From a virus (lineage: Duplodnaviria; Caudoviricetes): a stretch of DNA of 55,177 nucleotides. Location: positions 1 through 55,177 of the IMG/VR virus record IMGVR_UViG_3300023175_000047; one strand, written 5' to 3'. A model generated the notes under the pieces. The model searched no databases, was not told where the DNA came from, and saw only the letters and a list, made by a program, of their open reading frames with translations. The position numbers were made by a program, and so were the translations under genes. Of this stretch, positions 9,833-30,700 are shown in pieces (the stretch's first letter is position 1; each line of letters begins with the position of its first letter).

Positions 9833-12800
9833 TTGCCCGTACTTAATGTAAAGCCACAAAGTATTGATGTTGGTTCTTGTAAACCACCACAAAGAATTGA
9901 TGTAGGGTTAAGAGACCATCATCAAACATGGCTCGCCAATTACAATGAAATACGAACTGAAGTAAACAAAGCAACCTGTGATGCTGCGCCACGAACCATT
10001 GTCTATCGCAATCATCATGGTTCTATCGGAGCTAATGCAGTTTTTACAAGTGAACTTGTTCTTGGTTCAACAAATCCAAATGTTCCTGGAGTCGTCCCAC
10101 CCATTGTGATGAGTTCAACAGAATTCAAAACAAGCCCTGGTGTTACAACAACAATTCAAGGACCAGCTTTCTTTGGAAACACAACAACCTTTCAAGCAGG
10201 AAGCACAACATATTTTGAAGGTCCTTTATCCGCAAATGACACGGCTAACTTCAACGACCGTGTAAACTTTTATGGATACACGCATTTTCATCCATCAAGT
10301 ATTCTCAAGGTAGATGGTATCAGTTATTTTGATGAAGAGATGTTCATCAATGATAATGTTGATATGACAGGTGACCTAACATTAGTTGGTGACATTGCTC
10401 AAACTGGTAATACTGTAATTGATGGAAACTTAGATGTTGGTGATGACCTAATTGTTCGTGGAAATTTATCTGTTCTCGGTGACCATTCAACATTTGAAGT
10501 GAGTGACCTGAGAGTTGAAGATAAAAACATCATTGTCAATCACGGTGCGGTCAGTGCTGCTACAGATGCTGGTATTTGGTTTCAGCATTTTGTTGACACA
10601 AAAGCTGGTTACATGACAGTTGATGACTGGTCAACAGACTATCTCACATTCAAAGCACCAACTGCCTTTGAGATGAAAGTTGACATACCAGTTAAAGATG
10701 TTCTCTTTCGTTTAGAAGCAGACTTTGCCGCTGATCAAGAACTTCTCACAACATCAGACGTAGCACATCGTTCACTGCTTCTTGACAAATCATACACAAG
10801 ACACTTTGATGTTCCAAGTTACACACAACAACATGATCCGATAGCAAAGGATAAAGGTTGGTTGTCCACACCTTGGGTCTACACAAATGCTGTTGAATCA
10901 AATGATAATTTGACTGATGCGAATACAACTGGTCTTTACATGGGAACAACCTCATTCACAGTGCGTGATGAGGTTGCCTTGTATTCTCATGGTGAACATA
11001 AAATGTTCTTGAATCAGTTTGGTGATATTGGTTTCGGAACAAAGTTTCCAACAGCAGATTTACATTTGTTCAAAGAAGATCCTACCTTCCGTATTTCAAC
11101 AATTGATTATACTTCAAAAGCTACACTTTCATTCACAGACTTTAGTGAACGAATTGACACAGGCAGCATGTACCTTGAGTTTGATTCCTCAACAGGTGAC
11201 GGCTTACTTGAATTGACAACTCAAAGTCCTCTCAATCAATTTGCGATTTCAGTTGGAGGTTATCTAAAACAACCTGAAATCACCATCACAAATTCAACAA
11301 TCACCATTCATGATGATGTTGAAATCTATGGAAATGAATATGTCTCGAATGAATTGATTGTGGATAACACATTGTTTGTTCGTTCTCATTTAGTTGGTGT
11401 CAATCGCATTTCACCTGACGAAGCTTTAGATGTTTCAGGTAATATCAAAGGTGATAGTGATTTGATTCTCAATGGTCTTGAACCATTTGTTTTGATTGGA
11501 CCTTCAATCACTTCTCTTGAAAATATGGGAAGAAGTGGAATCGCAATTGAAGAACAAAGTCCTCTTGTTCAAATGACTGTAACAGAACCAAATTATCGAC
11601 ATGGCTCAATTCTTTATTTCAATGATTCAACTCATGATAAACATTGGGTAATGGGTACAGTCAATAATGGTTCAGCAATTGACTTAGGTAAAGCTCATGG
11701 GTCAACCATAAACACACCTGAATATGGTCTTGATGAATATCATGGTGAAACATTGATGCGAATTGATGAAACAGATCGAGTTCAATGGTATCTTGAATCA
11801 ACAGATTCCGATCCAGCAATGAGACTGAACACAAGAAATAACGGTGTTCATCTCTATCTTGGTGAACAAAATGATCTATTTGCATTAACAACTAATACCA
11901 CGTCCTACACTGCCAATTACTTCAGCTCGAGTGTGCAGTGGCACGGAGATTCTGCTACAGATACAATCGGTGAACTTACATATTTTCCAAATGGAAATGA
12001 TGATGGAGAGTTTGGTTCTTTCCGATTTTCAAGAACAGATGGTACAGTCAATCAAAGTGTTCCTTCTGCTAAAGTTGGTGCTAATCAATTCTTTGCAAAT
12101 GATAAAATTGGGATCTCACAAACAACACCTACCGCAGAACTACACATTACTAAAGACTATGCTGAAACTTTAGTTGAAACAGAAGATAGAGACACATTTG
12201 TTAAAGTTTCTGTAGATGATGCTACAAGTGAAGCAATTGTTCATGGGGAACATACTTCAGGAAGTTCATACTTTAAAATGAAAGCAACTAATCCTGCGAC
12301 TTTGGAATTAGTCTCCGACACTTATTCAATTGAACAATCAGCAGACCATTCCTCTGGAGAGTTAATTCTTAACTTGAGTGAAACTATTACTCCAGCTTCC
12401 TATATTGCAAAATCAGATACAACTGATACTGGTCATTACATAGAACGTCCACGAATGAAGTTAGCATTATCTCTTATGGATAATGCTGGTGCTCCTCAAG
12501 TGTACGAAAAAAGAAATTCAAAAACAACAGATTCTGTATTCGAACAAACAATTACAGACACTACGATCTATGAAGAATATCATGTAGATTTACAGAAAAA
12601 AGTATTAGATTTAAAAAACACATTTACAGCATATGAAGTGCTATCAGCAGGAAGTAATTACATTCAAAATTACATAGACTCTTCTACTCTTTATGCAAAT
12701 TCTACTATAAGCCTAGACAATGGATCAAGTATATCATTTGAGATAAGTGGTAATGATGTACGATGGATTAGTAGTAATCCTTTGAATAAATTTGAAATTC

Positions 12801-13834
12801 ATAATCGACAAGCTGATGGTAAATTAGACGTAGCGTTTAGTAGTGAAAGATATAAACTTGTACACACTAATCCAACAGATGTAGCGATCTATTGTGCTTA
12901 TCGTGATAAGTTTGTCATAAAGCTACCAACAACATTTGAATCACCAGTTTATTTCAATGATAAAGTAGTTGCAAATTCAAGTGTTGACATAGAAGGACCG
13001 CTTACTGTTGAGGGTCCTTCTCAATTCAATGACAGTGTAACTGTAGAAGGACCATTCACAGGAAATGGTGATGCTGTATTCAACAGCAAACTTATATCGA
13101 ATGATGAATTTATTTCAGAAGGAACAGCAGAATTCAATGAAGATGTAACATTTAATGATGAAGTAATATACTCTTCAACGTCAAATACAACATTTGATGG
13201 ACCAATTACATTCAATGAAGAGGTACATTATTCTGAAACGTCAAATACAACGTTTGATGGACCGAGCTATTTTAATGAAGATATTACTATAAATGAAGAT
13301 GCTACATTTACAGTCCATAGTGCAAATTCTAATTTTACAAATACTGTCAATTTTTATAGTAATACTATCTTCGAGGGAGATACTATTCTTGAAGGAGATA
13401 CTTATGTTGGTGGTGGTGGAATATCTTCTAATGACGATCCAGACTTCAAGTTGGCATGGAAAAAAGAAATCAGCAATGCTTCTGGTGTATCAGATGCTAT
13501 ATGCTTTTCTGGGTTCAATGCTAGTGTATTTTCTGTAATGGGTGATGTAGATATTTACATATATGATAAAGACTTTTCAAGTTCTCCATTTGGTGTAAGT
13601 TATCTTAACTTAAAAATAGCCGGTTATAAAATATCAGGACAAACTCTTAACATGACACTTCAAGAAACTCAAACCGCAATTGGTGATGATTACGCAAGTG
13701 CTTATACAAAAGTCCAGGGCAATTGTATTAAATTATACCCAGCAGTAAAAGCAAGTGACCCAACTCAAGATGCTGGAGCTTATGATTATAAAGTGATTTT
13801 TAGAGGAGTTATTAAAAACGGAGATTTGAGTTGA
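9833..13834 (+). CDS. Long tail fibre/spike-like beta-repeat protein
   Basis: TTG start with AAGGAGG SD; GDL-V-GNL-V-G and L-VEDKNI-VN motifs; G-IG-GT-P-LH repeats; F-G-F-periodic beta-helix-like stretches. Confidence 0.75.
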   Translation: MPVLNVKPQSIDVGSCKPPQRIDVGLRDHHQTWLANYNEIRTEVNKATCDAAPRTIVYRNHHGSIGANAVFTSELVLGSTNPNVPGVVPPIVMSSTEFKTSPGVTTTIQGPAFFGNTTTFQAGSTTYFEGPLSANDTANFNDRVNFYGYTHFHPSSILKVDGISYFDEEMFINDNVDMTGDLTLVGDIAQTGNTVIDGNLDVGDDLIVRGNLSVLGDHSTFEVSDLRVEDKNIIVNHGAVSAATDAGIWFQHFVDTKAGYMTVDDWSTDYLTFKAPTAFEMKVDIPVKDVLFRLEADFAADQELLTTSDVAHRSLLLDKSYTRHFDVPSYTQQHDPIAKDKGWLSTPWVYTNAVESNDNLTDANTTGLYMGTTSFTVRDEVALYSHGEHKMFLNQFGDIGFGTKFPTADLHLFKEDPTFRISTIDYTSKATLSFTDFSERIDTGSMYLEFDSSTGDGLLELTTQSPLNQFAISVGGYLKQPEITITNSTITIHDDVEIYGNEYVSNELIVDNTLFVRSHLVGVNRISPDEALDVSGNIKGDSDLILNGLEPFVLIGPSITSLENMGRSGIAIEEQSPLVQMTVTEPNYRHGSILYFNDSTHDKHWVMGTVNNGSAIDLGKAHGSTINTPEYGLDEYHGETLMRIDETDRVQWYLESTDSDPAMRLNTRNNGVHLYLGEQNDLFALTTNTTSYTANYFSSSVQWHGDSATDTIGELTYFPNGNDDGEFGSFRFSRTDGTVNQSVPSAKVGANQFFANDKIGISQTTPTAELHITKDYAETLVETEDRDTFVKVSVDDATSEAIVHGEHTSGSSYFKMKATNPATLELVSDTYSIEQSADHSSGELILNLSETITPASYIAKSDTTDTGHYIERPRMKLALSLMDNAGAPQVYEKRNSKTTDSVFEQTITDTTIYEEYHVDLQKKVLDLKNTFTAYEVLSAGSNYIQNYIDSSTLYANSTISLDNGSSISFEISGNDVRWISSNPLNKFEIHNRQADGKLDVAFSSERYKLVHTNPTDVAIYCAYRDKFVIKLPTTFESPVYFNDKVVANSSVDIEGPLTVEGPSQFNDSVTVEGPFTGNGDAVFNSKLISNDEFISEGTAEFNEDVTFNDEVIYSSTSNTTFDGPITFNEEVHYSETSNTTFDGPSYFNEDITINEDATFTVHSANSNFTNTVNFYSNTIFEGDTILEGDTYVGGGGISSNDDPDFKLAWKKEISNASGVSDAICFSGFNASVFSVMGDVDIYIYDKDFSSSPFGVSYLNLKIAGYKISGQTLNMTLQETQTAIGDDYASAYTKVQGNCIKLYPAVKASDPTQDAGAYDYKVIFRGVIKNGDLS
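13130..13282 (+). repeat. 60-bp (20-aa) tandem duplication within the fibre gene
   Basis: AACGTCAAATACAAC(A/G)TTTGATGGACC recurs 60 nt apart (FNDEVIYSSTSNTTFDGPIT / FNEEVHYSETSNTTFDGPSY). Confidence 0.85.
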
Positions 13835-13904: not shown

Positions 13905-15536
13905 ATGTTATTTCAAGAAAATATTGTTTCAGATGGAGCTACCACAGTCTATCAATATAAAGATCCGGCGGCAATTGACTCCAATGGTAATCTTAACACT
14001 TCACATCCATCAATACATTTTAATTTAAGTTTTACTATGCGTAATTCTGATGGTATGATGAACAACTTTCAAATAGGGAATCTTATATACATAACAGAAG
14101 CTACATATGGTAGTAATTTCCATTGTATTGATCCTTCGAAATATGAAACAGATCATAGGCGATGGTATAAATTTACATTACTATTTGGTGATAATGGGAT
14201 GCTAGTTGACCCTGATGCAAAATCAAATTATACGTCGGGTGGAGTACCTATTTCGGGTGGTCTGAAGATGGATGGAAATAGCCTCGTTAAGGCCTATTAT
14301 AATACCCCGGGAATATATCCAAGTGCTGCTGAACTTGCCAGCGGACAAATATCGCTTTATGCATCTACACGAAGCGGACTTTTAAGACAGGCCGATGATC
14401 CTGTAGCTGATTGGGTGGCAGGTACGGGCGCTTGTGATTGGACTATTAATTGTATTCATAACTTTACTCTTCCAGACCTAACAGCACCTACAATTACAGG
14501 CCCGAATTATCCTGCTTCTGATATTGTTATAGTAGGCTCAGAAAAGTATGTCAAATCAAATTCGATCACAGTTTCTTATTCAGCAACTGATACCGAATCT
14601 GGTGTTGCTGGAATTTGGATTGATGGAGTTCAAGCAAGTTCATCTGGAAGCGCATCAAAAACATATACAGGACCTACTCCTTTTACAACTGAAGCATACG
14701 CTGAAGACGTTGCGGGAAATCAATCAGCACCAACAAGTTCTGAATCTTTTAAATTTGATAATAATCCACCAACAGTTGCGATACAGGCTCAAAATCCAAA
14801 AGTAATTGGTGGTAAAGATTATTATAACGGTACTGTAGATATTCAAATAGACACGGATGATAATGAATCAGGTTTAGATAATGGTGACTTAATTATTAAT
14901 GGCACAACTACATCATTTACTACAACAACAGGACAGACAACTTATACAAAAACAATTGGTCCTGCTGATGGGATTATCGAAGGTGTAAATGCTGTTGAGT
15001 ATGTATCAAAAGATAAGGTAGGTAATCAAGATTCTGATACTGTAGTTTTTTATGTTGATAAGACTAAACCCGATGGATACATTATATTTTCAGCAGGAAA
15101 TAAAATACGCTCACGGGGTGGAACTTTATATACTAAAGAAACAAATGTTGATGTTGATTTACATTTTGGAGATGCTGGCGCCGATCCATCTGGTGTGACT
15201 AAAGGACTCATTCAAATTAACAACAGTGCTACACCTTCTGTTGGTAGTTTTGCAAGTGGTATAAGTTTATCTTCTTCACCAAAAACTTCACATAATGTCA
15301 CTGGACTTGTAAGTGGTCAAGTAAACACATTAACTTTTTTTGTAATAGATGCTGTTGATAACATATCAACAGGTGATACTATATCAGTAACTGTAGAGCA
15401 AGTAGATCCTTCGGGTTCAATACAAATTTCAAGCGCAGAAACACCGAAAATAACAAAATCAACTACAAATTATATTAACGATGGCGTTGTGGAACTAAAT
15501 GTAACTCATTCAGATTCAGAATCTGATTTATTTTAA
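13905..15536 (+). CDS. Ig-like repeat structural protein ending in a partial Ig domain
   Basis: Repeats D-P...D-ESG(V/L)...D-VGN-S; the last repeat stops at HSDSESDLF. Confidence 0.85.
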   Translation: MLFQENIVSDGATTVYQYKDPAAIDSNGNLNTSHPSIHFNLSFTMRNSDGMMNNFQIGNLIYITEATYGSNFHCIDPSKYETDHRRWYKFTLLFGDNGMLVDPDAKSNYTSGGVPISGGLKMDGNSLVKAYYNTPGIYPSAAELASGQISLYASTRSGLLRQADDPVADWVAGTGACDWTINCIHNFTLPDLTAPTITGPNYPASDIVIVGSEKYVKSNSITVSYSATDTESGVAGIWIDGVQASSSGSASKTYTGPTPFTTEAYAEDVAGNQSAPTSSESFKFDNNPPTVAIQAQNPKVIGGKDYYNGTVDIQIDTDDNESGLDNGDLIINGTTTSFTTTTGQTTYTKTIGPADGIIEGVNAVEYVSKDKVGNQDSDTVVFYVDKTKPDGYIIFSAGNKIRSRGGTLYTKETNVDVDLHFGDAGADPSGVTKGLIQINNSATPSVGSFASGISLSSSPKTSHNVTGLVSGQVNTLTFFVIDAVDNISTGDTISVTVEQVDPSGSIQISSAETPKITKSTTNYINDGVVELNVTHSDSESDLF

Positions 15537-15568
15537 GCTATCTCACACAATTATTTAAGGATTTTTGA

Positions 15569-18500
15569 ATGCCAACCGAAGTTTTACCTGTTGTTTATGG
15601 GGTTAGTAGTTGGTCTGTTAATTATATAACAGGCCATCCAATGTATCCTAAACCTTGGAATGTTATAGTTTGGCTTGAAGGTAATCTAACAGTAATAAAA
15701 GGATTTGATAGTGAAGCAGAGGCGATGGCTGTTACAGAAATTACCAAAGACACTTCATTCTTTCCCACTTTCACTGGGACTAAAGTAACAAGAGGTTCTA
15801 CAGAAATCCCGGCAGAAGCTACTAGTGTAAAAATTTATTCTGTAATTCATGATATGGGTGGAGGTGGAGGTGGATCTTCATGTGGAGATGGAACTCCAGA
15901 ACCACCATCGGGACAGTTAGGCAATAATGGTGTGGATGGTTGGACTAGAACACCAGGAGAGTTTAACAATGCAACAATTCGTGTCCAAGCCATTCATTGT
16001 ACAGGTGGTCCAGGTACAACTGTAGGTTCAGATACTCTTGCTGCAAAAGAATATTGGTTTGACTTTAAAGGGAATGGAACTGCCGGTGACATTAATTTTT
16101 ATGGATATTATATTCCTAAACTTCACGAAGTTGTTGATAATGGTTGGATACCAGATAAGACATGGGTATGGGTATGGACTGGAAATGCTGCGCCAACAGA
16201 AGGTCGTTCGACAGGTGATAGTCAAATCTTGTTACATATGTCCGAAATTGATAATAGGTGGGTACAGGTTTACATTGACAAAACACAAAATATCTTTAAA
16301 GTTTGTGGTGCGGAGTTAAGTTCTGGCGAAACACTGACCACTGGAACAAACTCGGCTCTTGGATTTCATCATGTGACTTTATCTCCTATGGATGGAAGTG
16401 GAGGCGGAGGAGGTGGAGGGGGTGGTGGCTCTACTTGTGCTGGTTGGGATGAATCTCAAGGAGTAACTGATTGGGTTGCTGGTCCGATTCAGGATTTGGA
16501 ATATTATTATCTTGCGGGTGGACCTGCTGAGAATGCTGGTGGAGGGTTTTTTGGACAAGTAGGATTACAACAAGATGGAAATGGATTTTATCATGATGAA
16601 GGAGATCCTGGTCAAGCATTAACAGTATTTAAAAATTCTACTCTAGCAAATATTATTGGTGCGGTCAAGCACATGTGGGCTAAAACTCCAATAACTCATG
16701 ACCCTTATTATGTTCTTACTGAAGGATTGAATGGATTTATAGTCGAAGGTTTTGAATTATCTAAGTTAGCTGATGCAAAAGCTGCCGCTCAGGCTTATTT
16801 TGATAGTGGATGGAGAGTAGTAACTATTGGCTTCTGCGGACCCGCCGGTTCTGATATTATATCTGCAACAGATATAGGAGGAACAAATTCAAGCGGTGAT
16901 GGCGGAGGCGGCGGAGGCGGCGGAGGCGGTGGTGGTGGTGGTGCTGGAAGTGGACCACCATATAGTTATACTTATTATGGTCAATCATCAAGTTGGACTA
17001 AAATTGGTTGTGTATCATTACCAGTTCAAGCCGTGCTTGGTGCTTCTATAAACAATGGTACAACAGATCCTATACCTGCTGGTAATTATTCAAGCGGTGA
17101 TTTTGAAATAATTCTCGATTCAAGTGCGCTAGCCGATTTTAAGAAAATATATCAAAGTTTTAATCCATCTGGAGCTATACCAGATCCTGTGTGGATATTA
17201 GATGCCGCAGGTTATCCAACTCAAACTGCCAATTTCTGGAATTGGTGGTCTGAAGCCGATGGTAAAGAATATTATCCGCCACAAACAATGGGTTCAACTG
17301 GTGGTTATGCTCTTGGGGCAAGAATAAAAGGAGCAAAGCCAGGTCTGATTCAGTGGTATTGGGATCATGCGGGAACAGTATTTGGTTTAACATTAAAAGG
17401 AGATATTCAAGTTGATGTAGACATACCTTATACTGGTTGGAACCTTGATATGTGTCTGCTTAAGTTCAATGCTTTGGCGGGACCTTATCCACCTAGTGGC
17501 GGCGGAGGCGGAGGCGGAGGCGGAGGCGGAGGCGGAGGTGGTGGCGTCCCGACATCCGTTACAGTTGCTCCAATCACACCACCAACTCAACCAAGTTTCG
17601 CAACAAGCGGTGGTTCAATTATATTAAAAACTGGTACAGCACCTTCATTCTCTGTTACACCACCAACATATGCTGAATTTGAAACTAGTGGTATACCAGT
17701 ATCTGGTGCTTCTACCGATCCTCTTTCTTATGCTAGTTTAACATTAAACATACTGAATCGTGTATTTTATTATCTAAGAGACATCGCAGGAAATATAAAA
17801 AGTGTTGGTTCTATTGATGTATATCCCGATACGGATGGACCTGAAATCACTAATGTTAATCTGACATTTAATAAACCACAACCTTATACTGTTGACTTTA
17901 ATGCTCCTGAAGTAGTTACCGCATCTGCGACATTTACGTTAAGAGATGTTGGTGTGGGTATCAAAGAATGGGCTTATGATGTTGGAGATGGTGTTTTACT
18001 ATACAGAACAGACCAAGTAACTAATGCTCCAAATACACCATATAATGTATCTGCGAGTAAAAGCTTTACAATATTTCCATATGTAATCAGTTCAATTAAT
18101 GTACCTTCAATGGTCACACAATCAGATACTAATAGCACAAATGGTTTAGTAGTGCTTCACGATAATATAGTTATTGATTGGTCTGATAATTTGTATGGAT
18201 ATGAATATGCTTTAAAATTTGTATTAGAATATGAATTAGAAGGATTTCAATGGCCGCATCCTTCTGATCCTGCTGGATCAGAGTTCCCATCAATATGTAA
18301 ATTAGATATTACATATAATAATGGAAGTACAACAGATGTTATCTATAGTGACGATTTGCAAAATATCGGACCAGGTCCTGCTCAAAACCCAAGTGCTTTG
18401 ATTAAAGTAGATAATGTAAATCCTAAAGAACTTTATGTTTTTCGAACGCCTTCTGATGAGTTAACAGGAACATTAGATATCATACTTTCACTAAAAGCAG

Positions 18501-19786
18501 GACCTACACATCCAACAACTTCGAAAGCATATGGTTCTTACAAGGCAAGATTTATTGAAAAACAAGTTGCTGTTGATGATAAGTATCCAGTTTTCATACG
18601 TGCTAAAGATGAATTTGATAATTACAGTTTTTATAAAGCAACTATTGATATAGTAAAAGATCCTTTTATATATTTCTTTGATATTACAAGTGTAGAAGTA
18701 AATAATTTAGCAGGTAATTACTATACAAATTTAGTAAATTTAAATGTAAGATTGAGTTATGTATCTGGCTCAAGAATTATTAGAAAACAAATATTATTAG
18801 TTCACAGAACGAGCGGAGTAATACATAGTCTTCATAATGTAAATCCAAATAATTTCTTTATAGGCGAGGAAAATCTAACATTGAATCTTTCTGGAAAAGA
18901 AGGGCCATTTTATCTTAGATTAGAAATTGAAGATTCTGCCGGTAGAAGTTCGAGTAAAGAATTTAATTTAAATAGAAATACAGTAGCTCCATTAATAAAT
19001 CCAGCAGTAGTAAATCCTACAACTCCTAAAAATGGTTCTGGTCAAGTAACTAGTGATTATACCGATGTAAGAGTAACTGTTACAAATGAAGTTACAGCTT
19101 ATTCTCCCTTATGGAAAGCAAGAGCGACTTTATCTTCAACACCTATTACTGCAGCTTCACTAAAAACATCACCAATCGATTTAATATCGAATACAAGTAG
19201 ACCATTTTATACAAACATGGTGTGGTTTGAAGAAAAACCACAGCCTTCAATGCAGGTAATATATATTCATGTGATGGATGTATGTAATAATATCACGACG
19301 TATACTTTGAATGTTATGACTAACTCTACATCATTAGTTCCTCTTGGTGATTTAACATCAACCGCAAGAGTCTATTATAAAAGTTCTACGGATCCAATAG
19401 ACCATCAATTGATGACTAAACCCAAACCAAGATTACTTAATACAGGTGATCCTGGTTTAACAGATAATGGAAGAATATTACAGTTAAATAAGGGTAGCAT
19501 TATTTTAGCACCTTATTTTGGAGGAGTACTTGCTTCACAAGCAGCATATACTCCTGACCCGCCCGCTGTTGTAGGAACAATTGTAAATACACAAGGTATG
19601 AAATTCTATTTCAATCGGAGACCATCGAAAGTTCATGATTATATGGATACAGAATATATTGATTATGATATGTCAGACCCGAATGAAGATGTTGGTGATG
19701 TAGCAAGAATTAAAAATGATGATATTATTTTTGAAGATACTGTATCTGATGGATCTAAAACAATTACTTTGGGAGATATATCATAA
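15569..19786 (+). CDS. Multidomain structural protein: four modules each followed by a poly-Gly linker, then Ig-like repeats
   Basis: Gly runs near 15857, 16400, 16901 and 17498; C-terminal half has LRDIAGN, AKDEFDN, IEDSAGR and VMDVCNN Ig-type strands. Confidence 0.85.
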   Translation: MPTEVLPVVYGVSSWSVNYITGHPMYPKPWNVIVWLEGNLTVIKGFDSEAEAMAVTEITKDTSFFPTFTGTKVTRGSTEIPAEATSVKIYSVIHDMGGGGGGSSCGDGTPEPPSGQLGNNGVDGWTRTPGEFNNATIRVQAIHCTGGPGTTVGSDTLAAKEYWFDFKGNGTAGDINFYGYYIPKLHEVVDNGWIPDKTWVWVWTGNAAPTEGRSTGDSQILLHMSEIDNRWVQVYIDKTQNIFKVCGAELSSGETLTTGTNSALGFHHVTLSPMDGSGGGGGGGGGGSTCAGWDESQGVTDWVAGPIQDLEYYYLAGGPAENAGGGFFGQVGLQQDGNGFYHDEGDPGQALTVFKNSTLANIIGAVKHMWAKTPITHDPYYVLTEGLNGFIVEGFELSKLADAKAAAQAYFDSGWRVVTIGFCGPAGSDIISATDIGGTNSSGDGGGGGGGGGGGGGGAGSGPPYSYTYYGQSSSWTKIGCVSLPVQAVLGASINNGTTDPIPAGNYSSGDFEIILDSSALADFKKIYQSFNPSGAIPDPVWILDAAGYPTQTANFWNWWSEADGKEYYPPQTMGSTGGYALGARIKGAKPGLIQWYWDHAGTVFGLTLKGDIQVDVDIPYTGWNLDMCLLKFNALAGPYPPSGGGGGGGGGGGGGGGGVPTSVTVAPITPPTQPSFATSGGSIILKTGTAPSFSVTPPTYAEFETSGIPVSGASTDPLSYASLTLNILNRVFYYLRDIAGNIKSVGSIDVYPDTDGPEITNVNLTFNKPQPYTVDFNAPEVVTASATFTLRDVGVGIKEWAYDVGDGVLLYRTDQVTNAPNTPYNVSASKSFTIFPYVISSINVPSMVTQSDTNSTNGLVVLHDNIVIDWSDNLYGYEYALKFVLEYELEGFQWPHPSDPAGSEFPSICKLDITYNNGSTTDVIYSDDLQNIGPGPAQNPSALIKVDNVNPKELYVFRTPSDELTGTLDIILSLKAGPTHPTTSKAYGSYKARFIEKQVAVDDKYPVFIRAKDEFDNYSFYKATIDIVKDPFIYFFDITSVEVNNLAGNYYTNLVNLNVRLSYVSGSRIIRKQILLVHRTSGVIHSLHNVNPNNFFIGEENLTLNLSGKEGPFYLRLEIEDSAGRSSSKEFNLNRNTVAPLINPAVVNPTTPKNGSGQVTSDYTDVRVTVTNEVTAYSPLWKARATLSSTPITAASLKTSPIDLISNTSRPFYTNMVWFEEKPQPSMQVIYIHVMDVCNNITTYTLNVMTNSTSLVPLGDLTSTARVYYKSSTDPIDHQLMTKPKPRLLNTGDPGLTDNGRILQLNKGSIILAPYFGGVLASQAAYTPDPPAVVGTIVNTQGMKFYFNRRPSKVHDYMDTEYIDYDMSDPNEDVGDVARIKNDDIIFEDTVSDGSKTITLGDIS
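17498..17545 (+). repeat. (GGCGGA)n microsatellite encoding poly-Gly
   Basis: Seen directly; similar runs at 16400-16429 and 16901-16942. Confidence 0.9.
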
Positions 19787-24727: not shown

Positions 24728-27700
24728 ATGGCAATTATTGGCAGTATTTCCCTTCATAGTGCAACACTTTTATCGACTACTCCCCTAGCGTATCAAGTTT
24801 GGATTAATGTAAATGCGGTAAGTGATTCGGAACTCATTCGTATGAGTACTTATTATGATTCTGCATTAGTCAACAATAATATTATACCGACTGCTCCTGT
24901 GCCAAAATATTCATATGGTACTACAGCAGTTCCTTATCTATTAGGAATTAGCTCAACTTCTACAGGATGGCATAATGTAGAAGTTGAATTTGAAAATAAT
25001 GGTGGAGAAGTTGTAAGATACATCACAAGTTTTTATCTTGATTTACAATCACCTACAATTAATAATTTTTCAAAAATAGACATTCGCAAAAATGGAGCTG
25101 GTGATTTTGTTGTATCTTGGGATGTAGACCTACATGATGATGCCGGAATTTCAAAAATCAAATTAGGAAGAGTACAAGATCCCTCATATGATAAGGTGAT
25201 TTCAATTCCTATAGGTATTCAAGATTATCATGAAACTATTCACATTATTGTACCACAAACAATACCAAATAATTCAACACATGATTTCTACATTGAAGTA
25301 ACAGATTATTCAGATAATACAATTACAAGTGCTACAGTTCCTGTTTTCTTCACAACAACACCTCCGGTGATTACAAACTATCGTCTAAATTATATTTCAC
25401 AAACAGCAACTGATTATATTTTAGACATGTATATTGATTGTGTGTTTGCGACTACTCAGAAGATTGTAGGTTACTCTTCAACATTTGCCACACCAGTAGC
25501 GTCATTTAATAATTATTTGGCCACTGGAGGAACGACTTCAATCAACACTCAAGTTGTAATTGATAAGGCTACAAATAACGCAGGAACATATAAGACATAT
25601 GCTCAAGTAAAAGATGATTTTGGAAATCTTTCACCAGTTGAAGAATATCAATTTACACTTGATACATTTGCACCAACTGGTGATTTGAATATGAGCTATG
25701 CTGAGAAAGTAGGAACGCATCCATCTCAGTTCTACTATGCGAATCTACATTTCACGGCAACTGACAGTGGATTAGTCACACACTATGCTTTTAGCGATGT
25801 AGGACCATCACACCTCACAACCTGGAATCCAATCGTTCCACCTTCTACGGTAGTCAACTTTCGACAGACCTATAACTTGGGTCAGTCGGGTTCAAAAACT
25901 GTCTATGCCAAGTATCGTGACTTCTCTGGGAATGAATCTGACGTCTATGCAGAGGCAATGACAATTGATGACTCACCACCTGCGGTAAGCTTGGGTTTTG
26001 TTCAAGGTGAAAAACGAGCAGATGGTGATTACGATGCTCTCTTTGATATCACTGCCATTGATAGTGACGCAATCAAATTCATCAAATTATATGCGGTCAA
26101 TTCAAACACGGGTAATCTTGTCTCAGGTCACACAAACAATTGGATTCAAATCACAGATACAACACATCTAATTGAAAGAAGACCAATTGTAGTCCCTGCT
26201 GCTGAACATGAAGACCTTCTTGATTTTCATTTTCAAGCAAGAGATATCTATGGTAATGAAAGCACAAAGCCTGTAGTAACTGTTCAGTTTGATAAACAAA
26301 AACCAACAATCAATAATTTTGTATTCACTGACACAACAAAAGGTGCTACAGAATATCGCATTCATACAAAATTTAATGCGATTGACAATCATGGTATTGT
26401 AGCTTATCGGTATCGTTTCGATAATGTAACATTAGCACCATGGATTTATACAACAAAAACAACTCATTTAGAAAAAGACATATATCTTGATGTACCAAAT
26501 CCTTCTGATTTAGGTGCTGCTAAGAATTTCCTTGTTCAAGTCAAAGATGCTTTTGGTAATGAAAGTAATGCAAATAGCTTGTTTGTCAAAACAAATGATA
26601 TACCACCTGAAAAAACACCAGGGACAGATGGTCTCAAATTTGCTGGTGGCGCACTCACTCCAACAGATTATGTTCTTTCATTTCAAGTAGATGTAAAAGA
26701 TATCGATCCTACTGATAATGTTTATTTCTATTCACTTGAAGTTGATAATGCTTCAACGATTAATTGGAAACAATTTTCAACACCAAATAACGCAATATCA
26801 GAAATTCTTACAATAAATTTACCTCGTACTACAACAGGTAAACATGATTTTTATCTAAGAGTAGCTGATAAGTATAAAAACATAAGCCCTGTTTATAATC
26901 TTGAATATGACCTTGATGCGATTCAAACAGTTGGTGGACTCACACTGAATAATGTTTCAAAGTCAGCTACAACTTATACAGCAAATGTTGAATTGTTTGC
27001 TGTAGACAATCGTAAAATACAATCATATTTCATTCAGAATAGTGATGGTGGACCAGAAGTTGAAGTCGCAATTGTTCCTCCTGTTCAAGTTTTCAATGAA
27101 TTCTATGAATTCCCAATTGGATTGGCAGCAGGACCAAAGTGGGCAACAGTTCGTTATAAAGATAACTTTGATAACATGTCTGATACGTATCGTATTGATT
27201 TTGATTTAGATACAACAGATCCTTATTTTGAATATTATTTTGCTGGCTCAACATCAAACGCAACGCATATCTTCTTAGATTTTGATTTAGATTTCAAAGA
27301 TAACTATCAATTACAATACTATAAATTCTGGGACAGCACAGTTCTCGAACCATCAGATTGGACTGAAATACCAAGAGCAAATAATGTCAGTGTTTCAAAA
27401 ACAGTTACAATACCAAAAGGTGTTCTAAATCCTACATTTACATGGAAAGTCTTAGACTTTTTTGGAAACGCTAACACAGGTAGCTTTTCAAAATATATAA
27501 CAACATCACCACCAACAACAACTCTTTCATTAAATTCAATTAGTTACTCTGTTGGTGATATCAATGTCGGTGTTGATTATGATATAATGGCTTCAGTTGG
27601 TTCAATGGTAGATAAGTATGAAGTTGATATCAATTCGGGTTCACACAACTATACAGTTGATTTATTTCCAAATCAATTGAATCCTAAAGGAACTTTTTAT

Positions 27701-30700
27701 CATAGCTATCCAATTACAGAAGTTCAATCTGATATCAAAGTTCACGCAACATCAGATTATGGGTACCGTGAATCCGCACCAATGACTTTGACTACTCTTT
27801 TTGATAGTACAGTGCCCATTGTTTCAAATACTACTTTCTTAGGAAGCTATGGTATTGCTGGTGATTATGTTCTTCAGTTCCGAGTAACAGCAACAGATAC
27901 TGGTAGTGGTATAAGAAAAATTATTTTCCGTGACCCAGCTGGTCATATACCAGATGTTGTATCTTTGTCTCCATTAACTCACAGTCTTGACCAAAATATC
28001 AATGTTCGTGTGGATGGTTCATATCCATTAAATTCAATTTCACCAACTATTTTCGTTGAAGACTTATTGGGCAACCGTTCAACTGGTAATACAGTTCCCT
28101 CAATCTATCTTGATAATGCTGGCGCCGCAGTCAACAATGTAATCATCAATTCAAATACAAGATATCCGTCAGTAATTCATACATCACCTGGTGTTGGCGC
28201 AAATACAAATATGATACCTGTTGAATTTGAAGCTCATGATTATTCAGAGATTACACACTATCTTTATTCGCCTCTTTTAAATGTACCTTTTAACCCAGCT
28301 ACTTGGAAAGCAGTTCCTACACCGGCGTTAGATATATCAATTAGCGAAACAATTAATTTAGATACTTTAGGATTTACCGAAGGTCATGGTGCTTTCTTCA
28401 TTCATACAAAAGATCGTTTTGATAATATCAGTGTAGCTGGTGAAGTCTTTGAATATGATAAAACAAAACCAACAGTCAGTATCGCATTTCAAAACCGTAT
28501 TGAACGAGCAAATGTAGCAGGTGTAGATCACTTTGTGGTACCATACACAATGACATATAATGATAATCATGCTGAAGTAATTCATAAAGTTGAAACAACA
28601 CGCATTGGTGGTGTGTGGTCTTCAGCAAATGTGTCAACGATTGTTCCAGAAGCTTTATCTGCGGTCAAAAATGAAGCTTATTATATACCAGTTGGAAATT
28701 ATGGTGACACAAGAATCAATGTAAGTGTAATTGACCGTTTGAAAAATCAATCAGCAAATACTGATTTTGATGTTTGGTTAGAAGACAATCCACCAGTAAT
28801 CAACTATGGTATCATCAATGGTGGTGCTGCTTATACGACAAACAAAAACGTGCTTGTTCGTATTGACATGCTCGATGACCGAGGTGTGACTGATTATCTC
28901 ATTTCAAATACAGCAAATCTTGTTTGGAATAGTCCAGGCTGGGCAACCATTCCTCTTTCGCCCGCAACAGCAATTACATCCACATTCAGCGTTGACTTAG
29001 AGGCGCTTGGTTTTGATCAGGGCACATGTAATGTTCACATGTATATTAAAGACTTCTGTCAAAATGTTTCAAACACTGTGTCAACAATCATTTATGATTA
29101 TGAACCACCTGAAGTTGTTGACTTTAAAATTGATGGTTTTGTCAGAACACCAAGCACATTTGACATCACTCTGAATGCTCATGCTTATGATGTAACATCC
29201 GGTCTTGTTGAATATTATATTTCACAAAGTAATACAGAAACAGTTTATAATCCTGTTCCTGGAACACCTCCACCAATCATCAACGATGGTTCAGCACCAA
29301 CAGAATTCAAGAAAGTAGAACAAGTTTCTGTGCGTGATGCTGGTTGGAAATGGTTCTACTTCTCAGCAATTGATGCCGCAGGTAATGTATCAGAAAAAGC
29401 AAATACAAGAATGTATATTGATTCGATTGCGCCTGTTGGTGTCACATTTGAGTCAGCAAGCCCAATCAATAAGTATTATCTAAATCCAACTCAAACAAAT
29501 TTTGATTATACTGTTACTGATGATTATGCATTATCAGTTCTTGGATATAATTTTGATGGCGGTGCTTCAACACTCTTCCGTTCTTACCCAGCACCTGTAG
29601 GTTTTGCTTTAGGAACTACAGTCGATTCAGGAACATTCAGCGCAACAACGATGGTAGCTCTTCCTGATGGACCACATACAATTTTCTTAGTTGTAAAAGA
29701 TACATTTAATAATACTGTTGAAGTACCTTACGAATTTTATTACGATAGTCAACCTCCTGAGATTACACGATTCGAAGTTTCAGAAATTCGTCCTTGGGTT
29801 GATCCTCCACCATCAACAGATTTCTGGGTAGAGTTTGACTTGGAGGTCAAAGATGCCGCAGGTATTGATCGTTACGAATTGTATGATAATGGTATTCTCA
29901 TGGCAACAGTCCCTGTGAATGATACACATGTTGCACAAACACCTAAGCTTCACACAACACTTTCAACTCTTACTCCACCAACTGGACTTGATATTCAATT
30001 TGTATTGCTTGAAGATATCTTTGGTGTAAGTTCAACAGAAGTGTTTGCTCTTGTGAATGGTTATACAGGAACACCAGCAGAAGATACCGCAATTCTAAAT
30101 GTAGCAAGCGCAAAGGGTAAAGTTTCTGTAAGTGAGTTAAGTCTTGCAGCAAGACCTGAAACAGATATTCGACAATTCCATAAAGGTTCGGCTCCAGCAC
30201 CTCAAACATTGGCTGCTGCGATTCCTACTTTCGACGATACAAATTTGATGCCAGTCGGTTATAAACTCTTCTCATTAGAACAAAGAACAAATCCTGTTTC
30301 AGATTCTCGAATGGTAGATTTCATGAAGAATGAACCAGGGCATTTTGTTTATGCGGATGAAGATATCACAGAATCATCAGTCAATCAATATACAAAAGTA
30401 GCATACACACCCATTTATACAAATGCTTCTGTTGATCGAGAAATTCATGTTTATGAAATTTATGCTTATGACTATGCTGGAAATATGGCAAGTAATACAT
30501 GTATTGAAGCATTTCATGATGGCACCTCGTTAGCGATCTCAAACATGTTAGTTGACGGTGCGGCATCGATTTCACGAACAGGTATTACAAATGAGGTGTT
30601 TACTGCTGATATGGATAGTTTAGTTGAAGTTGAGAAATATGCTCTTACAATTCAACCAACAATTGACTTTTATAATGCTTTCTGGGAAGATATTTCAACA

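What the first reader, a model, noticed from the sequence alone, without database searches (positions are those of the whole stretch)
15400..17830. Split Ig domain 1: begins at the end of ORF 13905 and resumes about 2 kb later inside ORF 15569
Seen: ORF 13905 repeats read ATDTESGVAG-I, TDDNESGLDNGDLIIN and GDAGADPSGVTKGLIQIN...FFVIDAVDNIS. Its last repeat stops at VTHSDSES-DLF. The missing part (FATSGGSIILKTG...FYYLRDIAGNIKS) appears in ORF 15569 right after the last poly-Gly/Pro linker. Deleting 15526..17594 joins G+GT and restores DSES-G-F in frame, matching the repeat consensus. Inference: a cassette of stop, RBS, start, four domains and a linker entered an Ig loop, and both halves were retained. 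The two chains could lock together by beta-strand complementation, giving a branched fibre with a free variable arm. RNA- or DNA-level removal of the insert is the alternative.
Basis: partly seen in the sequence, partly recalled or inferred. Interest (0 to 1): 0.9.

Follow-up and report, generated by a model that had tools for sequence, protein, structure and literature searches.

The report
Ig domain split between two phage genes
Two neighbouring fibre-type genes of an uncultured marine T4-like phage each carry one half of a single Ig-like domain, an arrangement kept in all related phages found, so the two proteins probably snap together into a two-armed fibre, though binding is not yet shown.

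Summary
ORF 13905 (543 aa) has three Ig-like repeats. It then stops about 43 positions into a fourth repeat (…VTHSDSESDLF*). ORF 15569 (1405 aa) has four modules joined by poly-Gly runs, followed by the rest of such a repeat (GGSIILKTG…FYYLRDIAGN…DVYPD).

Profile matches are complementary:
- The tails cover profile positions 1-43.
- The downstream segments cover positions about 53-111.

The truncated end is kept in 11 of 11 homologue clusters, in P0014, and in 12 of 12 metagenome loci. The second half follows a low-complexity linker in 9 of 11 downstream genes; the other two are cut by contig ends.

An AlphaFold2 model of the downstream piece alone gives only three long strands there, not a whole sandwich. 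Complex prediction gave weak support only: 0.34 against a best control of 0.01. No intron-like RNA was found. RNA-library contigs cross both borders unspliced.

The "one inserted cassette" idea is only partly right. The split is old, and the module array between the halves is a recombining mosaic that differs among relatives. One distant relative (P0018) looks unsplit, but its model failed.

Best reading: a naturally split Ig rebuilt in trans, confidence about 0.55. This would be a new variant of strand complementation.

The parts
13905..15536 (+). ORF 13905 (543 aa): variable N-terminal head (aa 1-189), three Ig-like repeats, then a C-terminal half repeat
   Evidence: (Big_12 at 25.1 bits, below the 27-bit cut-off)
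14472..15395 (+). Three complete Ig-like repeats: r1 aa 190-284, r2 aa 285-384, r3 aa 385-497
   Evidence: HMM hits cover the full profile length, with E-values from 4e-34 to 3.8e-47 (by construction for this copy).
15396..15533 (+). First half of the split Ig (aa 498-543, EQVDPSG...THSDSESDLF), presumed strands A-B. It ends in the invariant Leu-Phe.
   Evidence: invariant P502 G504 S510 Y523 T534 S536 D537 S540 L542 F543 in 11 of 11; profile positions 4-42/43
15537..15568 (+). Spacer between the two cistrons, with an AAGGA ribosome-binding-like site at 15557-15561. An in-frame TGA at 15566-15568 closes the ORF 15569 frame upstream of its ATG.
   Evidence: read directly. The spacer and module 1 are 76% identical in DNA to L005.
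15569..19786 (+). ORF 15569 (1405 aa): four N-terminal modules, the second half of the Ig, then a conserved C-terminal body
15569..17488 (+). Variable module array: modules at aa 1-96, 105-275, 290-444 and 465-640
   Evidence: module 1 shared with L005; module 3 shared with L003, L004, P0017 and P0026; modules 2 and 4 unmatched; module 4 absent from P0012 and P0013; no Pfam or PHROG match
15857..15874 (+). Poly-Gly run 1 (GGTGGA x3)
   Evidence: Border of the similarity to L005.
16400..16429 (+). Poly-Gly run 2
   Evidence: Border of the similarity to L004 and L003.
16901..16947 (+). Poly-Gly run 3 (GGCGGAGGC repeats, then GGT repeats)
   Evidence: Border of the similarity to L004 and L003.
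17498..17546 (+). Poly-Gly run 4 (GGCGGA x7.7), the last linker before the second half
17546..17608 (+). Pro-rich lead-in (VPTSVTVAPITPPTQPSFATS), modelled without structure
   Evidence: model residues 1-22, pLDDT below 50
17609..17830 (+). Second half of the split Ig (aa 681-754, GGSIILKTG...FYYLRDIAGN...DVYPD), presumed strands C to G
   Evidence: G, S, P, F, N, D, A, N, D invariant in 13 of 13; profile positions 53/63-105/111; long strands only at aa 683-690, 730-737 and 743-751
17831..19783 (+). Conserved C-terminal body of ORF 15569 (further beta-rich domains), presumed shared stalk and virion attachment
   Evidence: 72-73% identity to P0012 and P0013; P0017 4e-212, P0018 3.5e-40

Best explanation
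A single Ig-like repeat is encoded in two pieces by two adjacent cistrons.

The two proteins:
- The upstream protein has a variable head, three Ig repeats and a 46-residue C-terminal piece. That piece corresponds to the first two or three strands of the repeat and ends in an invariant Leu-Phe.
- The downstream protein starts with a string of one to four unrelated modules on low-complexity linkers. It then supplies the remaining strands (GGS[IV][IL][IL]...D.A.N...) and continues into a conserved body.

Proposed mechanism (inferred, not shown): the upstream tail docks onto the incomplete sandwich of the downstream protein and rebuilds one Ig domain. Two variable arms then sit on one conserved stalk. 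One arm is the head plus Ig stalk of ORF 13905. The other is the module string of ORF 15569.

The close spacing of the two cistrons, with a ribosome-binding-like site, would help make both chains together.

The linker-coding repeats act as recombination joints, so the modules can be exchanged without disturbing the joint.

The gene pair lies in the tail and baseplate block of a T4-like myovirus distantly related to cyanomyoviruses.
For: Shown:
1. The halves are complementary on the repeat profile, and their lengths add up. Tails cover positions 1-43 and segments cover about 53-111. The two pieces sum to 46 + 68-81 aa, against 108-115 aa for the intact third repeat.
2. The truncated end is conserved.
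   - It is present in 11 of 11 homologue clusters down to 35% identity, with ten invariant tail residues including the last two.
   - It is present in P0014.
   - It is present in 12 of 12 metagenome loci.
3. A same-strand gene follows in 11 of 12 loci. In 9 of those 11, the second half sits right after a low-complexity linker. The other two are cut by contig ends. Nine residues are invariant in 13 of 13 aligned segments.
4. Tail type and segment type go together in the 10 pairs seen (types 1, 2 and 3). Between the window and L005, the DNA lying between the two halves is more alike than the halves themselves. The spacer plus module 1 is 76% identical in DNA and 57% in protein, and repeat 1 is 73% in protein. 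The tail is only 44% and the segment 36%.
5. Modelled alone, the downstream piece has only three long strands in the segment (aa 683-690, 730-737, 743-751; block pLDDT 69-89), not a seven-strand sandwich.
6. Complex prediction gave weak support.
   - The score was 0.34 (runs 0.34, 0.00, 0.45), and the best of 3 controls was 0.01.
   - The mark was reached by 58 of 80 solved complexes and 2 of 110 mismatched pairs.
   - At 0.60 or under, it was reached by only 7 of those 80 solved complexes and by both mismatches that passed.
   - The runs agree in at least 9% of contacts, and the partner's pLDDT is at least 31.
7. P0018 (1016 aa, E = 3.5e-40 to ORF 15569 aa 676-1400) has Ig-like repeats running without any linker into the homologous region. 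A weak match of the tail profile ends at its Leu-Phe 253.
Against: - Binding is not shown. The complex score is a weak pass, one of three runs scored 0.00, no contacts were returned, and the partner's own fold was uncertain.
- I could not inspect coordinates. The three strands of the segment may simply pack on the next domain.
- The window's own profile matches are weak: tail 0.046-0.059 and segment 0.47.
- The tail-segment pairing involves adjacent genes in related phages. It is not independent evidence, and the mosaic argument rests on one comparison.
- P0018's first half matches the tail only weakly. BLASTP gives E = 15. The tail HMM gives i-E 0.0021 for a one-sequence search, and the whole-sequence E is 0.17. 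Its AlphaFold2 model failed, with mean pLDDT 42.6 and residues 62-457 under 50.
- No relative has a solved structure.
- The proteins have not been shown to be virion components.
Confidence: 0.55

Rival explanations
1. An old gene fission without trans-assembly of the two halves. The conserved tail of ORF 13905 would be a docking peptide for some other partner, for example a baseplate or fibre protein encoded nearby. The three-strand segment of ORF 15569 would be a small sub-domain that packs on its own next domain.
For: - The complex prediction is only a weak pass, with one failed run.
- The segment is modelled with fair confidence without any partner.
- L010 carries the same tail as L011 and L012 but a different gene start downstream.
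- The window holds many other large fibre and baseplate proteins that could be partners.
Against: - The two pieces are exactly complementary on the repeat profile and add up to one repeat length.
- They are always encoded side by side on the same strand.
- Controls with unrelated partners scored 0.00-0.01.
- The invariant residues of both pieces are the repeat's own motif positions.
Confidence: 0.3
2. The 2-kb stretch is removed or skipped, by an intron, DNA excision or translational bypass, so that one continuous protein with a whole Ig domain is made.
Against: - No intron-like or other relevant RNA family was found in 15300-17800 at E <= 1. The two hits are chance-level: a miRNA model at 23 of 100 bits and an sRNA model at 18.6 of 72 bits.
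- The stretch is an open frame continuous with the downstream protein, and part of it is conserved as protein in relatives.
- Contigs from an RNA library cross both borders unspliced with no mismatch: X15 at 15447-15813 and at 17568-17838.
- No 15525-to-17595 joint was seen in 4 of 4 runs laid. These are contigs, which can miss rare forms, and DNA may be present in RNA libraries.
- No direct repeats flank the borders.
- A 2-kb bypass is far beyond any known hop (recalled: about 50 nt in T4 gene 60).
Confidence: 0.04
3. Assembly artefact: a chimeric contig or a sequencing error creates a false stop and a false insert.
For: The region contains low-complexity GGC/GGA repeats at which assemblers can misjoin. 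Run X12 shows linker-to-linker joints.
Against: - The same arrangement appears in 12 separately assembled metagenome loci with diverged sequence.
- An X12 contig of 1476 nt covers 15455-16930 without a difference, and 15 runs hold half or more of the sampled words. Eleven of those runs may be the source sample.
Confidence: 0.01

Closest known systems
Donor-strand complementation in chaperone-usher pili (Fim, Pap, Caf1 type; recalled from established knowledge; two review or structure papers appeared only in the listing)
   Same: An Ig-like fold is encoded incomplete and is completed by strand(s) from another polypeptide, which joins subunits into a fibre.
   Different: - In pili, one C-terminal strand (G) is missing and is donated by a short N-terminal extension of the next identical-type subunit, after a periplasmic chaperone and an usher.
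- Here the missing part is the N-terminal two or three strands (about 43 of 113 positions).
- Here the donor is the C-terminus of a different protein. No chaperone or usher is involved and the pairing is one-to-one, not a polymer.
- This is not a member of that system. It resembles it only in how it may work.
Bacterial Ig-like domains of the Big_12 / Big_3 type (Pfam PF19078, PF13750), common in phage fibre and decoration proteins
   Same: The repeats carry the same motif pattern (D-x-x-SG in the B-C loop, D-x-A-G-N at the end of strand F). Repeat 2 matches Big_12 over 93 of 102 positions.
   Different: - The match is below Pfam's cut-off (25.1 against 27 bits).
- In known members the domain is contiguous in one chain.
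Modular T4-like and cyanomyovirus tail fibre gene blocks (Kyanoviridae such as S-RIM12)
   Same: - Neighbouring genes match cyanomyovirus structural genes. ORF 22010 is 42% identical over 100% of its length to S-RIM12, and 121 of 126 matching records cover at least 80% of the query.
- The S-RIM12 block also holds large tail fibre genes upstream of these genes.
- T4 gp9/10-type and baseplate-wedge connector matches lie in the window.
   Different: Neither ORF 13905 nor ORF 15569 aa 655-1405 has any tblastn match in 50,697 phage records. The pair is known only from metagenomes.
Glycine-rich motifs of T4 gp38 / S16 gp38 adhesins (polyglycine-II sandwich; seen only as passages and a reference entry in PMC13243795; details recalled)
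   Same: Glycine runs delimit variable host-recognition segments in a T4-like phage protein.
   Different: - In those adhesins, short Gly motifs are structural and the variable segments are short loops.
- Here runs of 6-16 Gly separate whole modules of 96-176 aa.
- In relatives the same places hold GS, SGTP or PPPAS repeats, which fits flexible linkers better.

Membership tests
Bacterial Ig-like domain (Pfam Big_12 PF19078 / Big_3_3 PF13750) | Score at or above Pfam's gathering threshold | tested here: not met
   Big_12 scored 25.1 bits against a cut-off of 27 (aa 285-378), and Big_3_3 scored 13.4 against 27. ORF 15569 matched no family; nothing for aa 655-1030.
Bacterial Ig-like domain (Pfam Big_12 PF19078 / Big_3_3 PF13750) | Repeated units of about 95-115 aa with a beta-sandwich strand pattern | tested here: met
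   26 full-length repeats from the family align over one profile; the domains after the segment are modelled as all-beta. Fold matches to the PDB are only generic beta-sandwiches, with TM 0.1-0.23.
Split (two-chain) Ig domain rebuilt by strand complementation | Two chains each carry a non-overlapping part of one domain profile | tested here: met
   tails cover positions 1-43 and segments cover 53/63-105/111 of 113.
Split (two-chain) Ig domain rebuilt by strand complementation | Neither part forms a closed domain on its own | tested here: inconclusive
   only 3 long strands in aa 681-754, but coordinates could not be inspected. The tail alone was not modelled as a single chain. In one search its pLDDT was 31-61.
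Split (two-chain) Ig domain rebuilt by strand complementation | The two chains bind and form one domain | tested here: inconclusive
   weak support, 0.34 against a best control of 0.01. One of three runs scored 0.00, and no contacts were returned.
Chaperone-usher donor-strand system | Missing C-terminal G strand supplied by an N-terminal extension, with a dedicated chaperone and usher | tested here: not met
   The missing part is N-terminal, and the donor is a C-terminal 46-aa piece. No chaperone or usher families were found among the window proteins scanned. Only 18 of the window's ORFs were scanned.
Intron, intein or bypass-interrupted gene | Structured intron RNA, or a spliced or joined form in reads | tested here: not met
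   no intron family at E <= 1; both borders are crossed unspliced, and no joint was seen in 4 of 4 runs (contigs only).
Intron, intein or bypass-interrupted gene | Intein or homing-endonuclease domains in the insert | tested here: not met
   no Pfam family for ORF 15569 at E <= 1; no PHROG.
T4-like myovirus tail/baseplate gene block | Neighbouring genes with baseplate and fibre family matches | tested here: met
   T4_gp9_10_N at 36.2 bits (cut-off 25) and Peptidase_S74 at 52.4 bits (cut-off 22); baseplate wedge connector phrog_677 at 4e-16; cyanomyovirus homologues.

The most novel reading that the evidence does not exclude
A clade of uncultured marine T4-like phages uses a two-gene split-Ig joint as a standard socket. 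The C-terminal 46 residues of one protein donate two or three strands that complete an Ig domain in the next protein, giving an obligate heterodimer.

This would mount two independently evolving arms on one conserved stalk:
- a head-plus-Ig stalk;
- a string of 1-4 swappable modules on low-complexity linkers, which double as recombination joints.

It would be a natural multi-strand, hetero-protein version of donor-strand complementation in a virus. It would also be a built-in way to combine host-binding modules.
Probability: 0.4. Interest if true: 0.8.

Novelty: new variant of a known kind. Interest (0 to 1): 0.6.

Why it matters
If the two chains do rebuild one Ig domain, three things follow.
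- It would be a natural split-domain joint in a phage fibre. It would show how phages can branch a fibre and double their variable, probably host-binding, surfaces without a dedicated adaptor protein.
- It would be a compact natural pair: a 46-residue tag and a socket of about 75 residues, of the kind protein engineers build artificially.
- The locus gives a clear picture of module shuffling at low-complexity linkers in environmental phages.

Four literature searches found nothing like it for phages (I saw listings and abstract starts only). The library lacks most subscription journals, so absence from print is not proven.

Tried and rejected
**My own alternative.** I proposed that ORF 15569 aa 668-757 is a complete Ig on its own, with PSFSVTPP...AEFETSG as the B strand and motif. 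The model shows coil and a short helix there and only three long strands. Alignment with the third-repeat type places GGSIIL on strand C.

**hhalign.** Comparing the segment with the all-repeat profile gave only the FYYLRDIAGN match (probability 6%). It could not decide between the readings.

**P0018 as a structural stand-in for the unsplit domain.**
- The AlphaFold2 model was unusable: mean pLDDT 42.6, with residues 62-457 under 50.
- Pfam found nothing in P0018.
- The repeat HMMs and hhalign on P0018 aa 195-345 gave only a weak match to the second half.
- Its locus could not be found in viral contigs.

**Combined alignments** of P0018 with both families (A4 and A5) misplaced the upstream family. 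They were not used for folding.

**Fused forms.**
- None was found among 772-2459-aa relatives of ORF 15569 (2 hits).
- None was found among 952-2715-aa relatives of ORF 13905 (3 hits). P0016 was not fetched.
- These searches score only the 8000 candidates that share the most words, so this is weak evidence of absence.

**Searches that found no relatives or nothing useful.**
- Viral-contig scans found no relatives.
- The phage record collection gave no match by DNA or by protein.
- Atlas look-ups of modules 2 and 3 gave no usable hit.
- Foldseek against the PDB gave only generic beta-sandwich hits at TM 0.1-0.23. Staphylococcal ClfA, ClfB and SdrC adhesins were among the hits. I draw nothing from them.
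- PDB sequence searches found nothing.

**Read laying.** Parts of 15000-18000 without RNA-contig cover are not evidence of anything.

**Not done.**
- Supplementary files of papers were not consulted.

Full report
**What is in the sequence**

- ORF 13905..15536 (+, 543 aa) has a head of about 189 residues and three Ig-like repeats (aa 190-284, 285-384, 385-497). A last 46 residues follow, EQVDPSGSIQISS...VVELNVTHSDSESDLF, then TAA.
- After a 32-nt spacer with AAGGA at 15557-15561, ORF 15569..19786 (+, 1405 aa) starts. An in-frame TGA lies directly before its ATG, so the two are separate cistrons in different frames.
- ORF 15569 has four modules (aa 1-96, 105-275, 290-444, 465-640). They are separated by Gly runs at aa 97-102, 278-287, 445-458 and 644-659, encoded by GGTGGA, GGCGGAGGC and GGCGGA repeats.
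- After the last run come a Pro-rich lead-in and then GGSIILKTG...FYYLRDIAGNIKSVGSIDVYPDTDGP.
Because the two ORFs are in different frames, an in-frame junction can always be drawn, so the arithmetic is not evidence.

**Is the split more than chance?**

- I built an HMM from the window's three repeats. It hits every member of the upstream family once more at the very C-terminus, but only over profile positions 1/4 to 41-44 of 104. This holds for 12 of 12 proteins, with E-values from 1.2e-05 to 0.21 (window 0.059).
- An HMM of the third-repeat type (7 sequences) places 11 of 13 tails on positions 1-39/43 of 113. The best are L010-L012 at 2.8e-07 and L013 at 3e-04; the window scores 0.046. The two L005/L006 tails were misplaced at chance-level score.
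- The same HMM places the downstream segments on the other part: positions 53-111 for L005 (4.2e-05) and L007 (3.3e-04), and 62/63-105 for P0028 (0.012), the window (0.47) and L003 (0.34).
- The break lies in the B-C loop (consensus GDsGadPSGvsKG).
- Tail plus segment measure 46 + 68-81 residues. The intact third repeat measures 108-115.
- The window's own scores are weak, so the case rests on the family.

**Conservation**

- The word-indexed search found 11 clusters related to ORF 13905 at 35-100% identity. All 11 end in ...T[HK]SD..S.LF, with ten invariant residues in the tail including the last two. Their N-terminal heads are unrelated.
- The search among longer proteins found P0014 (964 aa) with the same end, plus two generic Ig-repeat proteins. 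No fused form appeared.
- A metagenome scan gave 12 loci. All 12 carry the tail, and 11 of 12 have a same-strand gene starting a few to a few tens of nucleotides later. L013's contig ends there.
- In 9 of those 11 the downstream protein has N-terminal modules, a low-complexity linker (G, GS, SGTP or PPPAS repeats) and then the GGS[IV][IL][IL]... segment. L010 and L012 are cut by contig ends before it could appear.
- A full HMMER scan of 1.84 billion representatives with ORF 15569 aa 640-1405 found 13 proteins. Nine cover the segment.
- An alignment of 13 segments has G, S, P, F, N, D, A, N and D invariant.

**The stretch between the halves**

- It is not one cassette. Downstream proteins carry 1 to 4 modules, which fall into 16 sequence clusters among 24 modules. 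Only module 3 (C..WDESQG...GGTN, 5 proteins) and module 1 (window and L005) recur.
- Module 4 of the window is absent from its closest relatives P0012 and P0013.
- At DNA level the window shares different parts with different relatives:
  - with L005: 15539-15876 (spacer plus module 1, 76%) and 14456-14777 (repeat 1, 81%);
  - with L004: 14765-15541, 16434-16898 and 17568-19786 (74-76%).
- The similarity borders fall on the Gly-run repeats.
- Tail and segment differ together between the window and L005 (44% and 36% identity). The DNA lying between them is more similar (module 1 at 57% protein identity). This is one instance of the two halves staying matched across an exchange.

**A possible unsplit relative**

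- P0018 (1016 aa) matches ORF 15569 aa 676-1400 over its residues 262-1006 (E = 3.5e-40). Its first 253 residues look like Ig repeats and run into the homologous region without any linker (...KIDVTITSPLGNLF-TGSDPTLHWIVTTGGS...).
- The tail profile matches P0018 184-244 weakly (i-E 0.0021 for one sequence; whole-sequence E 0.17). A non-significant BLASTP alignment ends exactly at Leu-Phe 253 (E = 15).
- Its AlphaFold2 model was unusable (mean pLDDT 42.6), and its locus was not found. P0018 is therefore a lead, not a proof.

**Structure and binding**

- AlphaFold2 on ORF 15569 aa 655-1030 with 13 aligned rows gave mean pLDDT 72.8. Within the segment only three long strands form (aa 683-690, 730-737, 743-751), plus short helices at 701-707 and 718-721. 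The lead-in is disordered.
- That is not a complete sandwich. I could not inspect coordinates, so packing of these strands on the next domain is not excluded.
- Complex prediction was run with aa 655-779 of ORF 15569 and aa 498-543 of ORF 13905. It gave weak support:
  - score 0.34 (runs 0.34, 0.00, 0.45), best of 3 controls 0.01;
  - the mark was reached by 58 of 80 solved complexes and 2 of 110 mismatched pairs;
  - at 0.60 or under it was reached by only 7 of those 80 solved complexes and by both mismatches that passed;
  - the runs agree in at least 9% of contacts, and the partner's pLDDT is at least 31.
- No contacts were returned.

**Removal of the insert**

- An Rfam scan of 15300-17800 at E <= 1 gave two chance-level hits and no intron.
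- Twenty runs hold the stretch or a part of it. Six are on record as RNA, and 11 may be the source sample.
- I laid three RNA-library runs and one other run. RNA-library contigs cross both borders without a difference (X15 at 15447-15813 and 17568-17838). A 1476-nt contig of X12 covers 15455-16930. No 15525-to-17595 joint appears in 4 of 4 runs.
- These are contigs, which can miss rare forms, and an RNA library can hold DNA. This is absence of support, not proof of absence.

**Context**

- The window is a fragment (CheckV 31%) of a virus record.
- Its neighbours include T4 gp9/10-type and baseplate-wedge connector proteins, and fibres ending in an S74 chaperone domain.
- ORF 22010 is 42% identical to a conserved gene of Synechococcus cyanomyoviruses. 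In S-RIM12 that gene lies just downstream of large tail fibre genes.
- Neither gene of the pair matches any of 50,697 phage records or any solved structure.

**Reading**

- The split Ig is real, old and conserved. The conserved parts are the C-terminal tail of one protein and the socket plus body of the other. The variable parts are both N-terminal.
- The simplest mechanism is that the tail completes the socket, so that two variable arms share one conserved stalk. This step is inferred, and I put it at about 0.55.
- The main rival, at about 0.3, is a fission whose tail now binds something else.
- Splicing, excision or bypass (0.04) and an assembly artefact (0.01) are unlikely.

**Comparison with what is known**

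- It would work like donor-strand complementation of pilus subunits. It fails that family's defining features: the missing part is N-terminal and multi-strand, the donor is a different protein, and there is no chaperone or usher.
- I therefore rate it a new variant of a known kind.
- Four literature searches found no description in phages (listings and abstract starts only). In PMC13243795 I read only the four passages containing "polyglycine".

Noticed in passing
window 15857-15874, 16400-16429, 16901-16947, 17498-17546: The four Gly-run coding repeats coincide with the borders of DNA similarity to different relatives (L005 against L004 and L003). They look like recombination joints for module exchange.
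   Followed up: partly
window 15874->16925 and 16423->16928 (run X12): Contigs of one run join linker to linker. One joint skips 504 nt (shorter side only 24 nt). The other replaces 15875-16924 with 36 other letters. These are either natural variants lacking modules or misassemblies at the repeats.
   Followed up: no
L010:4386-5417 versus L011:3022-6144 and L012:4709-5098: The last 50 residues of the upstream protein are identical in L010, L011 and L012. The gene that follows starts differently in L010 (MAEINVY...) than in L011 and L012 (MAYNTTP...), so the exchange point can lie right after the stop codon.
   Followed up: no
window 19786: The start of ORF 19786 (503 aa, phrog_1417) shares one base with the stop of ORF 15569. 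The genes at 19786, 21308 and 22010 match PHROGs of unknown function, and ORF 22010 is conserved in cyanomyoviruses.
   Followed up: partly
window 9833-13834 and 15569-19786: ORF 9833 ends ...VIKNGDLS and ORF 15569 ends ...ITLGDIS. The same two endings recur in L002 and L004. This may be a shared C-terminal motif of neighbouring fibre proteins.
   Followed up: no
window 32937-36701 and 36717-38801: Two further large proteins end in an S74 intramolecular-chaperone type domain typical of self-cleaving tail fibres (Peptidase_S74 at 52.4 bits; many tail-fibre PHROGs).
   Followed up: no
window 24728-30949: A 2073-aa protein also shows a sub-threshold Big_3_3 Ig-like match (22 bits against a cut-off of 27). 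Ig-repeat giants are frequent in this block.
   Followed up: no
P0008, P0014 (and L010-L013): Some upstream-family proteins carry an extra region of about 400 aa (…GRGHNGSS…GIRGRGTDRGG…) between Ig repeats. The upstream arm is therefore modular too.
   Followed up: no
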